Below, one piece after another: positions 7,701-13,269 of a stretch of 64,000 nt of DNA. Made by a program: the position numbers and the translations under genes. The notes under the pieces were generated by a model, which was given only the letters and a program-made list of their open reading frames with translations, was not told the origin of the DNA and did not search any database. Origin of the DNA: the human T2T-CHM13v2.0 reference genome, Homo sapiens; NCBI RefSeq assembly GCF_009914755.1, contig NC_060930.1. One strand, written 5' to 3'. Each line of letters begins with the position of its first letter. The first letter of the stretch is position 1.

Positions 7701-8340
7701 TAAGGAGAATTGGTGTTTATTCTTTTTTGAAAGTTTAGTCGAATTTGGCAGTGAAGCCATCTGGTCCTGGACTTTTCCTTGTTGGAAGATTTTTGTTGCT
7801 GACTCAACCTCTTTACTCATTGTTGATCTGTTCAGGCTTCCTATTTCTTCCTAATTCAATCTTGGTATATCTTATGTGCCGAGGAATTTATTTATTTCCT
7901 CTAGATTTTCCAGCTTGTTATTCTATAATTGTTTATAGTGTTCTCTGATGATCTTTTGTATTTCCGTGATGTCAGTTGTAATGTCTCCTTGTTCATTTCT
8001 AATTTTGTTTACTTGAATCTTCTCTCCTTTTTCTTGGTTAGTCTAGCAAGTGATTTATTGATTTTCTTCAACTTTTCAACACACCAAATTTTCATTTCAC
8101 TTATCCATTGTATTTTTCTCTTAGTTTCCATTCTGTTTAGTTCTACTCGGACCTGCATTTTTTTCTTTACTAATTTCAACTTGGTTTGTTTTTGCTTTTC
8201 CAGTTTCTTTTAAATGCAATGTTAGATTATTTATTTGAAACCTTTCTACTTTTTGATGTGGGTTTCATTGCTATAAACTTTCCTCTTTTCGCAGCTTTTG
8301 CTGAATCTTATAGTTTTTGGTATGTAGTGTTTTCATTTTG

Positions 8341-10505
8341 TTTTTTTTTTAATTATTATTATGCCTTAAGGTCTGGGTACATGTGCAGAACCTGCAGGTT
8401 TGTTACATAGGTATACACATACCACAGTGGTTTGCTGCACCCATCAATCTGTCACCTACATTAGGTATTTCCCTTAATGCTATCCTTCCCCTAACCCCCC
8501 ACCCCACAACAGGCCCCAGTGTGTGATGTTCCCCTCCCTGTGTCCATGTGTTCTCACTGTTCAAGTCCCACTTACGAGTGAGATCATGCGGTGTTTGGTT
8601 GTGGAGTTTGGTTTTCTGTTCTTGTGGTAGTTTGCTGAGAATAATGGTTTCCAGCTTCATCCATGTCCCTGCAAAGGACATGAACTCATCCTTTTTTATG
8701 GCTGCATAGTATTCCATGGTGCATACATGCCACATTTTCTTTATCCAATCTATCATTGGTGGGCATTTGGGTTGGTTCCAAGTCTTTGCTATTGTGAATA
8801 GTGCTGCAAAAAACATATGTGTGCATGTGTCTTTATAGTAGAATGATTTATAATCCTTTAGGTATATACCCAGTAATGGGATTGCTGGGTCAAATGGTAT
8901 TTCTAGCTGTAGATCCTTGAGGAATCACCACATTGTCTTCCACAATGGTCGAACTAATTTGGACTCCCTCCAACAGTGTAAAGGCATTCCTATTTCTCCA
9001 CATCCTCTCCAGCATCTGTTGTTTCCTGACATTTTAATGATGGCCATTCTAACTGGCATGAGATGGTATCTCATTGTGGTTTTGATTTACATTTCTCTAA
9101 TGACAGTGATGATGAGCATTTTTCATATGTTTGTTGCCTGCATAAATGTCTTCTTTTGAGAAATGTCTGTTCATATCCTTTCCCCACTTTTTGATGGTGT
9201 TGTTTGTTTTTTCTTGTAAATTTGTTTATGTTCCTTGTAGATTCTGGATATTAGCCTTTTGTCAGATGGATAGATTGCAAAAATTTTCTCCCATTCTGCA
9301 GGTTGCCTGTTCACTCTGATGAGAGTTTCTTTTGCTGTGCAGAAGCTCTTTAATTAGTTCCCATTTGTCAATTTTGGCTTTTGTTGCAATTGCTTTTAGT
9401 GCTTTAGTCATGAAGTCTTTGCCCATGCCTATGTCCTGAATGGTATTGCCTAGGTTTTCTTCTGGGGTTTTTATGGTTTTAGGTCTTACATTTAAGTCTG
9501 TAATCCTTCTTGAGTTAATTTTTGTATAAGGTGTAAGGAAGGGGTCCAGTTTCAGTTTTCTGCATGTGGCTAGCCAGTTTTCCCAACACCATTTATTCAA
9601 TAGGGAATCCTTTCCCCATTGCTTCTTTGTGTCAGGTTTGTCAAAGATCAGATGGTTGTAGATGTGTGGTGTTATCTCTGAGGCCTCTGTTCTGTTCCAT
9701 TGGTCTATATATCTGTTTTGGTACCACTACCATGCTGTTTTGGTTGCTGTAGCCTTGTAGTCTAGTTTGAAGTCAGGTGGCGTGATGCCTCCAGCTTTGT
9801 TCTTTTTGCTTAGAATTGTTTTGGCTATGTGGGCTCTTTTCTGGTTCCACATGAAGATTAAAGTAGTTTTTTTCCAATTCAGTGAAGAAAGTCAATGGTA
9901 GCTTGATGGGGATTGCATTGAATCTATAAATTACTTTGGGCAGTATGGCCATTTTCATGATATTGATTCTTCCTATCCATGAGCATGGAATGTTTTTCCA
10001 TTTGTTTGTGTCCTCTCTTATTTTCTTGAGCAGTGGTTTGTAGTTCGCCTCAAAGAGGTTCTTCACATCCCTTGTAAGTTGTATTTCTAGTTATTTTATT
10101 CTCTTAGTAGCAATTGTGAATGGGAGTTCACTCATGATTAGGCTCTCTGTTTGTCTGTGATTGGTGTATAGGAATGCTTGTGATTTTTGCACATTGATTT
10201 GGTATCCTGAGACTTTGCTGAGGTTTCTTATCAGCTTAAGGAGATTTTGGGCTGAGATGATGGGGTTTTCTAAATATACAATCATGTCATCTGCAAACAG
10301 AGACAATTGAACTTCTCTTTTCCTATTTGAATACCGTTTATTTCTTTCTTTTGCCTGATTGCCCTGGCCAGAACTTCCAATACTATGTTGAATAGAAGTG
10401 GTGAGAGAGGGCATCCTTGTCTTGTGCCAGTTTTCAAAGGAATGCTTCCAGCTTTTGCCCATTCAGTATGATATTGGCTATGGGTTTGTCATAAATAGCT
10501 CTTAT
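8341..10505 (-). mobile_element. 5'-truncated L1PA7-like element nested in L1MA3
   Basis: Poly-T, L1PA7/8-type 3'UTR (tggtttgctgcacccatcaa; agaatgatttataatcc) and ORF2 fragments including LFADDM (10091..10462). Confidence 0.85.
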
Positions 10506-10615
10506 CAACCATACCACCCTAAATGCAGCCGATTTCTTCTGATCTCAGAAGCTAAGCAGGGTTGGGCCTGGTTAGAACTTGGCTGAAAGACCACCTGGGA
10601 ATACCGGGTGCTGTA
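10506..10615 (+). pseudogene. 5S rRNA retropseudogene (about nt 6-115 of 5S)
   Basis: ccataccaccctaaatgcagccgatttcttctgatctcagaagctaagcagggttgggcctggttagaacttggctgaaagaccacctgggaataccgggtgctgta matches human 5S rRNA with about 13 mismatches, roughly half at CpG. Box C is mutated (ggatggga to ggctgaaa). Confidence 0.95.
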
Positions 10616-13269
10616 TTTCATTTGTTTTAAGAATTTTTTTACTTGCTTCCTAATTATTTAATTTACCTAATGGTCATTCCGGAACATATTGTAAAATTTT
10701 CATGTATTTGTATAGTTTCCAAAGTTCTTTTTAATATTGATTTCTAGTTTCATTCCACTGTGGTTTGAGAAGATACTTGATATAATTTGGATTTTTAAAA
10801 ACTGATTGAGACTTGTTTTGTGGCCTAACATATGGTCTACCCTGAAGAATGTACCATGTGCTGGTAAAAAGAATGTGTATTCTGCAGTTGTTAAATGAAA
10901 TGTCCTGTATACGTTATAGGTCCATCTATTGTATTAGAGTTATCTCTCCCTTTAAATCTGATAATATTTGTTTTATACATCTGGGTGATCTGATGTTCAG
11001 TGTATAAACACACAAAGACACCCAAATCTTTCTTTTTCTTTCTCTCTTTCTTTCTCTTTCTTTCTTTCTTTCATCTATTTATCATCTCACCCTACATACA
11101 TATATATGTATATATGTGTACCCAATTCTTTATTCTATATATGTAGATATTATTATTATATTCTCTTGTTTTATCTTACATAAGTACAGCTATTCCTGTT
11201 TGCTTTTTGTTTCTGTTTACATGGAATATTTTTTTTCCATTTCTTTTCTTGCCATCTATGTGCGTCTTTACAGGTGAGGTAAAGTTTCTTGTAGGCAGCA
11301 TAGAGTTGGGTTGTGCTTTTTTTAAAATCCATTCAGCCAGTCTATACCTTTCGAGTGGAAAGTTCAATCTATTTATGTTCAAGGTTATTGAAATGTAAGG
11401 ACTTATTCCTATTCTTTTGTTACTTGTTTTCTGTGTCTGTGTGTGTTCCCTTTGTTTTTTCTTTCTCTCTTATTTTTTTCATTTTAGTTTGATGGTTTTC
11501 TGTAGAGGTAATATTTTAGTTCTTTCTCTTTCTTATTTGCTTGTTTACTCTACCAGTAGGTTTCATATTTTCATGTGTTTTTATGATGGTATCATTGTTT
11601 TACATACCCTTTGTTTCTTTCTTTCTCTCTTATTGTTTATCATTGTGGTTTGGTGGTTTTCTGTAGTGGTAACATTTGGACTTTTACCTATTTGTGTGTT
11701 TGTTCTACCAGTGGGTCTTATTCTTTCATGTTTTTATGATGATATTGTCCTTTTGCTTCCAGGTGTAGGACTCCCTTCTGCATTTCTTATAGGGCACATC
11801 TAGTGATAAATTCCCTCAGCTTTTGATCATCTTGGAAATACTTTATTTCTCCTTCATTTATGAAGGATAATTTTAGTTATAGTATCCTAGATTAGCAGGG
11901 CTTTTTTCTTTCAGCACTTTGTATATATTGTTCTATTCTCTTCTGGCCCATAAGGTTTCTGCTAAGAGATTTGCTATTAGTCAGATGGAGGTTCCCTTAT
12001 AATTGACTAGATGCTTTTCTCTTGCTGTTTTTTAAAAATATCTGTTTTGACTTTTGATATTTTAACCATAACGTGCCATGGAGAAGACATTTTTGGGTTG
12101 TATGTATTTGGGGATCTCTGAGTTCCCTGTATCGGTATGCTATATGTCTAACTCTCTTGCCAGACCTGGGAAGTTTTTGGCTATTATTTTATTATATAGG
12201 TTTTCTATCTCATTGGTTTTCTCTTTGCCTTCTGGAACACCAAATAGTTAAACATTTCACCATATTGTGGTATTCCATATGTCATGTAAGCTTTGTTAAT
12301 TTTTTTATTGTTCTTTTTTCTTTATTTTTGTCTAACTGGGTTATTTCAAAAGGCCATCTTCAAGTTCTGAGAGTCTTTCTTCTACTTGACCTAGTCTACT
12401 GTTGAAGCTCTTTTATGTATTTTTTATTTCATTCAATGAATTATTCAGTTTCAGAATAATTTCCATTTGATTCTTTTTTTATATGTATCTCTTTGGTAAA
12501 TTTCTCATTTATACCCTGATATGTTTTTCTGATTCTTTATATTACTTATCTGTGTTCTCTTTTATCTCATTGGGCTTCTTTAATATCATTATTTTGAATT
12601 ATTTTTCTGGCATTTCAAAAATTTTTTCCATTGGAATCTTTTGCTAGAGAATTATTGTGTTTCTTTGGAGGTGTCATGTTTCCTTGTTTTTTTCATGTTT
12701 CTGTGCCCTTATATTGATATATGTGCATTGGGTGTAGTAGTTGCTTTTTGTAGATTTTTGGATTTGCTTTCATAGGGGAGGACTTTCTTCTGGAGATATA
12801 TTTATAGTGTTGGTTAGGTAGGGCACTTTGGCTTTGATTCTGAGTGTGCGTAGTAGTAGTATAGTTCTTGGATAATTTCTTTGGCTGTAAACAGTGTCTG
12901 TGTTGTCTGTGATTGCCTCAGTAGGTTAGGGTGCAGTTGTGAGTGCAGGCTGTGGTAAAGTTTTTCTGGGGAGAGGGATGTCAGATGAACCAGTCCTCAG
13001 GCCCCAGTGGTGACAGCAATAGGCCAAGCATGCTTATCCTTTGACCCCAGGGTGGTATGCACCAGCACCATTGTTAGCACATCCAGATAGGCCAATTATT
13101 GAACCTCCAGGTGGCTTGCTTGGGTACTAACTGTGGCAGTGGTGGGCCAGGTGGGTGGGCAGGTCTTCAGGTCTCTGGGAAGTAGGTGTGGCATGGACAA
13201 TGGCAGGACAACCCTCTGGTTCCCATGTGGTCCATGGTGGTGTTGGCAGTGGCTGTGATGGACTGAGCA

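What the first reader, a model, noticed from the sequence alone, without database searches (positions are those of the whole stretch)
8331..10630. 5S rRNA joined in inverted orientation to a truncated L1: possible twin priming on two different RNAs
Seen: a minus-strand L1PA7 stops at 10505 and is joined directly to a near full-length 5S copy on the PLUS strand. The host L1MA3 then resumes collinearly. Similar flanks bracket both parts (tttcattttgtttt at 8331, tttcatttgtttt at 10616), and the non-CpG divergence of the 5S looks compatible with the L1PA7's age. Known: template-switch or ligation chimeras (U6/L1, 5S/L1) are typically co-oriented, while twin priming inverts part of the same RNA. 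Inference: the first nick primed the L1 poly(A). The second nick, whose 3' end reads ...GAAA, primed on a separate 5S RNA near its Pol III UUU 3' end (junction ctgta|ttt, with GGC missing), and the two cDNAs were joined head-to-head. This fits ORF2p RNPs assembling on ribosomes, and it would be an under-recognised route to small-RNA pseudogenes.
Basis: partly seen in the sequence, partly recalled or inferred. Interest (0 to 1): 0.8.

Follow-up and report, generated by a model that had tools for sequence, protein, structure and literature searches.

The report
Inverted 5S rRNA–LINE-1 chimeric insertion
A dead copy of 5S ribosomal RNA and a truncated LINE-1 retrotransposon were pasted into the genome head-to-head in one event, an arrangement that is real but belongs to a class already described in print, so it is a tidy extra example rather than a discovery.

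Summary
A 2.16 kb 3' part of a minus-strand LINE-1 (8345-10505) is joined, with no filler, to a plus-strand 5S copy (10506-10615, 5S positions 6-115). One 13/14-base target-site duplication (8331-8344 and 10616-10628) brackets both parts, and the nick site is TTTT/AA. Neither part has a duplication of its own. The host is an older L1 that continues collinearly. The 5S and L1 show compatible decay, and the junction is unique in the genome.

The topology fits twin priming on a separate 5S RNA, but this is not new. Doucet et al. 2015 proposed twin priming between a small RNA and L1 RNA for inverted snRNA/L1 chimeras. Law and Burns 2026 list 27 5S/LINE-1 chimeras, of which I count 23 antisense, and they ascribe the antisense chimeras to twin priming.

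This locus is not among those 27. It also carries a longer 5S segment (to position 115) than any antisense entry there (at most 102).

I could not test orthologous empty sites. Verdict: an uncatalogued member of a known kind, of low interest.

The parts
8331..8344 (.). Upstream copy of the target-site duplication, TTTCATTTTGTTTT (14 bases)
   Evidence: Read directly. It pairs with 10616-10628 with one 1-base gap; the score of 11 is reached by 3 of 20000 random site pairs. Both copies align to the same stretch of reference L1 copies.
8345..8350 (-). Short poly(A) remnant of the L1, seen as six T on the + strand beyond the four T that belong to the duplication
   Evidence: The T-run 8341-8350 has 10 T, against 4 T in the downstream copy of the duplication.
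8351..10505 (-). 5'-truncated LINE-1, the 3'-terminal 2.16 kb. It corresponds to positions 3877-6035 of the 6092-base L1 copy at 51945-58036 in this window.
   Evidence: Single collinear BLAST block at 89% identity to two in-window L1 copies. Homology stops at 10505. The best relatives genome-wide are 88-91% identical over the 3' kilobase (40 scored of 18904 candidates).
10505..10506 (.). Head-to-head junction between the L1 5' truncation point and 5S position 6. There is no filler and no in-register microhomology.
   Evidence: A 26-base word across the junction occurs once in the 3.1 Gb genome at up to 3 mismatches.
10506..10615 (+). 5S rRNA pseudogene (RNA5SP214 in RefSeq), 5S positions 6-115 of 121. 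The first 5 bases are absent, and so are GGC of the last 6.
   Evidence: Rfam RF00001 at 61.9 bits, against 114.6 bits for the array genes. Ungapped comparison with the array gene gives 15 of 110 mismatches: 8 of 92 at non-CpG sites and 7 of 18 at CpG sites.
10616..10628 (.). Downstream copy of the target-site duplication, TTTCATTTGTTTT (13 bases). Its first TTT could instead be the U-tail of the 5S RNA.
10625..10632 (+). First-strand nick site of the L1 endonuclease, TTTT/AAGA on the + strand (TT/AAAA when read on the L1 sense strand)
   Evidence: Read directly. The position follows from the duplication and from the T-run that starts the L1 cDNA. That it is the cleavage site is an inference.
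3655..8330 (-).
   Evidence: 68-75% identity to young L1 copies, in the same orientation.
10629..11000 (-). Host old L1 resuming collinearly to the right of the insertion
   Evidence: Local alignment of 10608-10999 to reference copy A 48283-48678 and of 10607-11000 to copy B 54779-54381.

Best explanation
This is one LINE-1 integration event that produced an antisense 5S/LINE-1 chimera by twin priming on two RNAs.

Proposed sequence of events:
1. The L1 endonuclease nicked the + strand at TTTT/AAGA inside an older L1.
2. The exposed T-rich 3' end primed reverse transcription of an L1 RNA from its poly(A). That cDNA stopped about 2.16 kb in.
3. The other strand was cut 13-14 bases away. Its 3' end (...ATGAAA) primed a second reverse transcription on a separate, essentially intact 5S RNA, at or within 6 bases of its 3' end. 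This cDNA ran almost to the 5S 5' end (position 6).
4. The two cDNA 3' ends were joined without microhomology, and the gaps were filled, which duplicated the 13-14 bases.

Shown: the anatomy, the single duplication, the nick motif, the compatible ages and the unique junction.

Inferred: that the second strand primed the 5S copy, and the order of steps.
For: - One duplication brackets both parts. It is anchored at both insert edges and scores 11, a score reached by 3 of 20000 random site pairs. The flanks of the 5S alone (score 4) and of the L1 alone (score 3) are at null level.
- The duplicated bases are host sequence, because both flanks overlap on the same reference L1 stretch.
- The nick is TTTT/AA, and a T-run starts the L1.
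- The 5S has no A-tail, and its 3' end faces the flank while its 5' end faces the L1. This is the polarity expected for a cDNA primed from the second-strand nick. It is identical to two classical 5'-inverted L1s in this window, at 30268-32004 and 41993-43542, each with its own duplication.
- Decay is compatible. 5S non-CpG mismatches are 8 of 92 (8.7%, 95% CI 3.8-16.4). L1 private non-CpG differences are 134 of 1991 (6.7%). Fisher p = 0.40.
- No second copy of the junction exists in the genome: only the window's own locus covers the junction among 40 scored of 1858 candidates, and the 26-base junction word occurs once at up to 3 mismatches.
- Published class: in Table S2 of Law and Burns 2026 I count 23 antisense of 27 5S/LINE-1 chimeras (binomial p 3e-4 against random orientation). 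The authors propose twin priming for antisense chimeras. Doucet et al. 2015 propose the same for 7 of 30 snRNA/retrotransposon chimeras.
- My own detection recovered a catalogued example with the same geometry: L078 on contig 2, 5S 13-89 abutting an inverted L1.
Against: - There is no in-register complementarity between the presumed second primer end (...GAAA) and the 5S bases that follow position 115. Pairing with the UUU tail requires the loss of GGC, which is unexplained.
- There is no microhomology at the L1/5S junction either, although twin-priming products often show some.
- The 5S segment ends at 115, whereas catalogued antisense chimeras end at 40-50 or 80-102. This locus is atypical for the class.
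- No orthologous empty site could be examined, so co-arrival rests on the duplication alone.
- Sequence cannot distinguish second-strand priming from capture of a ready-made 5S cDNA.
- The T-rich null for the duplication is less extreme (21 of 5000).
Confidence: 0.62

Rival explanations
1. One event, but the 5S piece was not primed from the second nick. Instead, the L1 reverse transcriptase, having stalled on L1 RNA, jumped onto a pre-made antisense 5S cDNA (or other antisense 5S strand) and copied it. Alternatively, a free 5S cDNA was captured as filler when the 5' junction was repaired.
For: The same final structure would result. There is no microhomology at either 5S junction, which suits end-joining capture or homology-independent jumping.
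Against: Capture as filler predicts random orientation, yet the published set has 23 antisense of 27 (p 3e-4). A jump onto 5S RNA itself would give the sense orientation. This explanation needs an extra intermediate, a free antisense 5S strand, for which nothing here gives evidence.
Confidence: 0.13
2. Classical twin priming on a single RNA. A 5S RNA was first ligated or otherwise fused to a 5'-truncated L1 RNA in the sense orientation. The second nick then primed inside the 5S part of that one chimeric RNA and inverted it. The 6 missing 5S bases would be the small deletion typical of inversion points.
For: It explains why the L1 ends exactly where the 5S begins, and why the last 5S bases are missing. 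The in-window inverted L1 at 30268-32004 shows a comparable 22-base loss at its inversion point. Ligation of U6 to L1 RNA is documented (PMC6789731, passages read).
Against: If fused sense RNAs were the source, uninverted sense 5S/L1 chimeras should outnumber inverted ones. The published table shows 4 sense against 23 antisense, and 3 of the 4 sense cases lack a duplication. The same paper notes that 5S is not normally given the 2',3'-cyclic phosphate that RtcB ligation needs.
Confidence: 0.08
3. Two independent insertions that happen to abut. A 5S retropseudogene landed exactly between the L1 5' end and its duplication, or the L1 landed next to an older 5S copy.
For: 5S tailless retropseudogenes are common: 555 in human according to Noll et al. 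2015 (PMC5322556, passages read). In my sample, 25 of 30 5S copies were 3'-truncated stand-alone copies.
Against: The flanks of the 5S alone and of the L1 alone show no repeat (scores 4 and 3, at null level). The repeat that exists spans both parts. There is no filler or host sequence between the parts, and their ages are indistinguishable.
Confidence: 0.05
4. The chimera is a secondary copy, made by retrotransposition of a read-through transcript or by segmental duplication of an older chimeric locus elsewhere.
For: None found.
Against: The junction word is unique in the genome at up to 3 mismatches of 26. Only the window's own locus covers the junction among 40 scored of 1858 candidates. The sensitivity of the word search is limited for copies more than about 12% diverged.
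Confidence: 0.02

Closest known systems
Antisense 5S/LINE-1 chimeric insertions (Law and Burns, Cell Genomics 2026, PMC13174262; preprint 10.1101/2025.02.02.635956), Table S2 '5S' sheet, 27 loci
   Same: The 5S piece sits at the 5' end of a truncated L1 in the opposite orientation, with the 5S 5' end at the L1 junction. One duplication of 7-17 bases flanks both parts, and the endonuclease motif is TT/AAAA. L1PA7 is the most frequent partner in that table (7 of 27 by my count).
   Different: This locus is not in the table, which has no chromosome 6 row. Its 5S reaches position 115, whereas the antisense entries end at 40-50 or 80-102. Co-arrival was not tested here by multi-species alignment, which is that paper's criterion.
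[quoted passage not shown]
   Same: The small RNA is in inverse orientation to the L1 inside one duplication, and the endonuclease consensus is seen only when read in the L1 orientation. The proposed mechanism is the same.
   Different: Those cases involve U1, U2, U5 and U6, are 3'-truncated in a loop, and show complementarity between the snRNA and the insertion site. Here the RNA is 5S, it is nearly full length, and complementarity is absent or ambiguous.
Classical twin-primed (5'-inverted) L1 insertions (Ostertag and Kazazian 2001, cited from reference lists only; not read here)
   Same: Identical topology. Two examples lie in this window, at 30268-32004 and 41993-43542, each with its own duplication.
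   Different: There the inverted piece comes from the same L1 RNA, with a 22-base loss or a 12-base overlap at the inversion point. Here it comes from an unrelated RNA.
Sense U6/L1 chimeras (template switching or RtcB ligation; Moldovan et al. 2019, PMC6789731)
   Same: A small Pol III RNA is fused to a 5'-truncated L1 within one duplication.
   Different: U6 is co-oriented with the L1 and full length (98.3% sense according to Law and Burns). Here the orientation is opposite, which neither a template switch onto RNA nor RNA ligation produces directly.
Tailless 5S retropseudogenes (Noll et al. 2015, PMC5322556; Schmitz et al. 2004, cited only)
   Same: The 5S copy has no A-tail and was made by the L1 machinery through priming that does not use a poly(A).
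   Different: Tailless copies stand alone with their own duplication and mostly end at internal loops. In my sample, 25 of 30 end at position 96 or before. This copy shares its duplication with an L1 and ends at 115.

Membership tests
Antisense 5S/LINE-1 chimeric insertion (Law and Burns 2026) | A 5S-derived segment directly upstream (within 50 bases) of the 5' end of an L1 | tested here: met
   L1 homology ends at 10505 and the 5S begins at 10506, with 0 bases between.
Antisense 5S/LINE-1 chimeric insertion (Law and Burns 2026) | 5S in opposite orientation to the L1, with the 5S 5' end at the junction | tested here: met
   5S is on the + strand and the L1 on the - strand. 5S position 6 is at 10506.
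Antisense 5S/LINE-1 chimeric insertion (Law and Burns 2026) | One target-site duplication (7-20 bases) flanking both parts | tested here: met
   13/14 bases at 8331-8344 and 10616-10628. The score is reached by 3 of 20000 random pairs, and neither part alone has a repeat.
Antisense 5S/LINE-1 chimeric insertion (Law and Burns 2026) | L1 endonuclease motif at the cleavage site | tested here: met
   TTTT/AAGA on the + strand, which is TT/AAAA on the L1 sense strand.
Antisense 5S/LINE-1 chimeric insertion (Law and Burns 2026) | Contemporaneous arrival of both parts in multi-species alignments | not testable with these tools
   No primate or other mammalian genomes are held. Only the compatible decay of the two parts could be shown.
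Antisense 5S/LINE-1 chimeric insertion (Law and Burns 2026) | Typical rather than defining: 5S truncated near position 46 or 90 | tested here: not met
   The 5S runs to position 115. The longest antisense entry in Table S2 ends at 102.
Twin-priming product (two-RNA variant, Doucet et al. 2015) | Inverted piece on the 5' side of the L1 within one duplication, with its template-3' end next to the flank | tested here: met
   The geometry is the same as in the in-window inverted L1s.
Twin-priming product (two-RNA variant, Doucet et al. 2015) | Complementarity between the second-strand primer end and the template at the priming site | tested here: inconclusive
   There is none in register after position 115. 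Three bases (AAA with UUU) pair only if the TTT at 10616-10618 is counted as the 5S tail and GGC was lost.
Sense small-RNA/L1 chimera by template switch or RNA ligation (U6/L1 type) | Small RNA in the same orientation as the L1 | tested here: not met
   The orientations are opposite.
Stand-alone tailless 5S retropseudogene | A duplication flanking the 5S copy alone | tested here: not met
   The flanks of the 5S alone score 4, a value that 13732 of 20000 random pairs reach.
Functional 5S rRNA gene | Sequence of the array genes and membership of the tandem array | tested here: not met
   61.9 bits against 114.6 bits for the array genes, 15 of 110 mismatches, and a solitary location on contig 6.

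The most novel reading that the evidence does not exclude
Second-strand (twin) priming can start at the very 3' end of an intact, full-length 5S RNA, with the A-rich end left by the second nick pairing with the Pol III U-tail. This would differ from priming only in the internal loops of cleaved or folded 5S, as in all 23 catalogued antisense cases. If so, whole 5S RNPs sit at L1 integration sites, and U-tailed Pol III transcripts in general could be copied this way. That would yield near full-length, tail-less pseudogenes hidden at L1 5' ends, which censuses based on clear alignments miss.
Probability: 0.15. Interest if true: 0.35.

Novelty: new member of a known kind. Interest (0 to 1): 0.2.

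Why it matters
The locus adds one clean, well-delimited example to a small published set of 27, and it extends the range of 5S priming positions almost to the 3' end. This bears on whether the 5S templates are cleaved fragments, as Law and Burns suggest for the position-46 class, or intact RNAs primed wherever the second-strand end can start. It also shows that the published census is incomplete. It does not open a new mechanism, because the two-RNA twin-priming model has been in print since 2015.

Tried and rejected
1. A longer 17-base duplication, with TGT microhomology between the target and the 5S end. When I indexed the bases, the similarity was out of register by one, so I dropped it (note).

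2. A genome-wide list of 5S copies that keep their 3' end, using a 22-base word at up to 3 mismatches. There were 214 hits, but only 100 were listed, and 90 of those are array genes. Of the 9 other listed loci, 0 have an inverted L1 at the 5S 5' end.

3. The same word followed by four letters that exclude the gene's own continuation. This gave 9 hits. I examined 6 loci other than the window's own that had not been seen before, and 0 of those 6 resemble this locus.

4. A 23-base word carrying two decayed CpGs of this copy, at up to 1 mismatch. This gave 60 hits, none in the array. I examined 30 of the 60. Two of those 30 have an inverted L1 abutting the 5S 5' end: this locus, and L078, which matches a catalogued locus by its 5S range 13-89 and its orientations. 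L1 was detected only with two references from this window, so old or divergent L1 families may have been missed in items 2-4.

5. The Rfam family search in the genome scored only 47 of 87856 candidates, all of them array genes, so it gave no pseudogene list.

6. Buzdin et al. 2003 (PMC169886) is not held, so I could not check what it says about 5S orientation.

8. The name RNA5SP214 occurs in 5 held papers. None concerns retrotransposition, judged from the search listing only.

9. The weak Rfam hit PK-repBA at 11284-11364 (19.9 bits, gathering threshold 45) is chance.

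
Full report
**What is there**

Window 8331-10628 holds a compound insertion inside an older, diverged L1.

Read on the + strand, it consists of:
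- a 14-base repeat, TTTCATTTTGTTTT (8331-8344);
- six further T (8345-8350);
- 2.16 kb of antisense L1 (to 10505);
- 110 bases of sense 5S rRNA (10506-10615);
- the 13-base repeat TTTCATTTGTTTT (10616-10628);
- the continuation of the old L1.

Rfam scores the 5S at 61.9 bits, E 1.2e-11, on the + strand.

The same genome is held, so I took the functional 5S gene from its chromosome 1 array, where copies score 114.6 bits. Window 10506-10615 equals 5S positions 6-115 without gaps and with 15 mismatches of 110. The first five 5S bases are absent, and so are the three bases (GGC) after position 115. The TTT that follows may be the 5S U-tail or the start of the repeat.

The L1 part aligns as a single collinear block, at 89% identity, to two other L1 copies in the window. 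It stops exactly at 10505, where those copies continue with L1 sequence. That point corresponds to position 3877 of the 6092-base copy at 51945-58036.

**Is the flanking repeat real?**

- The two copies are anchored at the two edges of the insert and differ by one single-base gap.
- A local score of 11 is reached by 3 of 20000 random site pairs at the same spacing. It is reached by 21 of 5000 pairs chosen to be equally T-rich.
- Both flanks align to one overlapping stretch of the younger L1 copies used as stand-ins for the host family. In copy A the upstream flank reaches 48304 and the downstream flank starts at 48283. In copy B the corresponding positions are 54757 and 54779.
- The repeat is therefore duplicated host sequence, and the host is collinear across the insert.
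- The flanks of the 5S alone score 4 and those of the L1 alone score 3, both at null level.
- The base after the downstream repeat gives TTTT/AAGA, the L1 endonuclease motif.

**One event or two?**

Several lines point to one event.
- The only duplication present spans both parts.
- Nothing lies between the parts.
- The 5S has no A-tail.
- The two parts have decayed alike. The 5S shows 8 of 92 non-CpG and 7 of 18 CpG sites changed. The L1 shows 134 of 1991 private non-CpG differences against two in-window copies. This L1 figure is an upper bound, because those two copies are closer to each other than to this one. Fisher p = 0.40.
- The best relatives of the L1 elsewhere in the genome are 88-91% identical (40 scored of 18904 candidates). 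That fits an element of roughly L1PA6-8 age, but I could not verify the name L1PA7.
- The junction is unique. A 26-base word across it occurs once in 3.1 Gb at up to 3 mismatches. No other locus covers it among 40 scored of 1858 candidates. The locus is therefore not a copy of another chimeric locus.

**Mechanism**

On the L1 sense strand the order is: duplication, antisense 5S (from its 3' end to its 5' end), L1 from its truncation point to poly(A), duplication.

That is the topology of twin priming. A cDNA primed from the second-strand nick starts at the template's 3' side next to the flank, and it meets the first cDNA head-to-head.

Two textbook 5'-inverted L1s in this same window have exactly this geometry:
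- 30268-31260 plus 31261-32004;
- 41993-42825 plus 42822-43542, inside an Alu.

Each has its own duplication.

A template switch onto 5S RNA, or an RNA ligation, would give the sense orientation.

I rate twin priming on a separate 5S RNA at about 0.62. The main alternatives are as follows.
- Capture or copying of a ready-made 5S cDNA. Against it stands the orientation bias of the published set.
- Classical twin priming on a pre-fused 5S-L1 RNA. Against it stands the scarcity of sense 5S/L1 chimeras.

In register, the primer end ...GAAA has no complementarity to the 5S bases after position 115. Pairing with the U-tail requires GGC to have been lost.

**What is known**

[quoted passage not shown] They report that 20 of 27 have duplications of 7-17 bases and that 14 lie at the endonuclease motif.

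In their table I count 23 antisense and 4 sense loci. Three of the 4 sense loci have no duplication. They propose twin priming for antisense chimeras.

Doucet et al. [quoted passage not shown]

Noll et al. 2015 (PMC5322556; passages read) describe 555 human 5S tailless retropseudogenes that end at single-stranded regions, and they favour internal priming.

I could not read Buzdin et al. 2003, nor the supplementary PDF files of Law and Burns.

**What is particular here**

The locus is not among the 27 listed loci; there is no chromosome 6 row. Its 5S reaches position 115, while the antisense entries end at 40-50 or 80-102.

In my own limited sampling of the genome:
- Two of 30 examined 5S copies have an inverted L1 at their 5' end, from 60 hits of a 23-base word. 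One is this locus. The other matches a catalogued locus (5S 13-89, L078).
- Twenty-five of the 30 end at position 96 or before, and 5 end at 115 or beyond.
- Among 15 further 5S copies that keep the 3' region, none has this arrangement.
- The remaining 30 hits could not be fetched.
- L1 was recognised only with two in-window references.

**Verdict**

The twin-priming reading is plausible and is the published model. The novelty claim is not supported.

This is an uncatalogued, unusually long-5S member of a known class. The decisive missing test is the orthologous empty site in other primates.

Noticed in passing
window 30268-32004: A classical 5'-inverted (twin-primed) L1. 30268-31260 is antisense (positions 5272-4283 of the in-window copy at 51945-58036). 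31261-32004 is sense (5295-6051) with a poly(A). There is a 22-base loss at the inversion point. It is flanked by AAAACAAGACCT[C/G]TA.
   Followed up: partly
window 41993-43542: A second 5'-inverted L1, inserted into an Alu. 41993-42825 is antisense (6067-5236) and 42822-43542 is sense (4527-5247). There is a 12-base overlap at the inversion point, and the flanking repeat is about ATTTTTTTGTATTTTTA.
   Followed up: partly
window 45084-48290 and 51945-58036: Two younger L1 copies in opposite orientations, 93.5% identical to each other over the 3' 2.1 kb. The second is 6092 bases long, which is near full length. I used them only as references.
   Followed up: no
L048 (G000 contig 19, 21249801-21253822): A 5S fragment (positions 42-121) lies inside an insertion that interrupts an old L1 between its positions 2792 and 2795, next to an A/T-rich tract. 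It may be another compound retro-insertion.
   Followed up: no
L047 (G000 contig 12, 38109133-38113154): Two 5S-like copies on the same strand about 1.9 kb apart (5S positions 17-121 and 27-121), which suggests a local duplication of a 5S pseudogene.
   Followed up: no
L060-L089 (30 sampled 5S copies genome-wide): Most sampled dispersed 5S copies are stand-alone fragments that end near position 90 (25 of 30 end at 96 or before). This agrees with the published truncation hotspot of tailless 5S retropseudogenes.
   Followed up: partly
window 11284-11364 (- strand): A weak Rfam hit to PK-repBA (19.9 bits, gathering threshold 45, E 0.56). I take it as chance.
   Followed up: no
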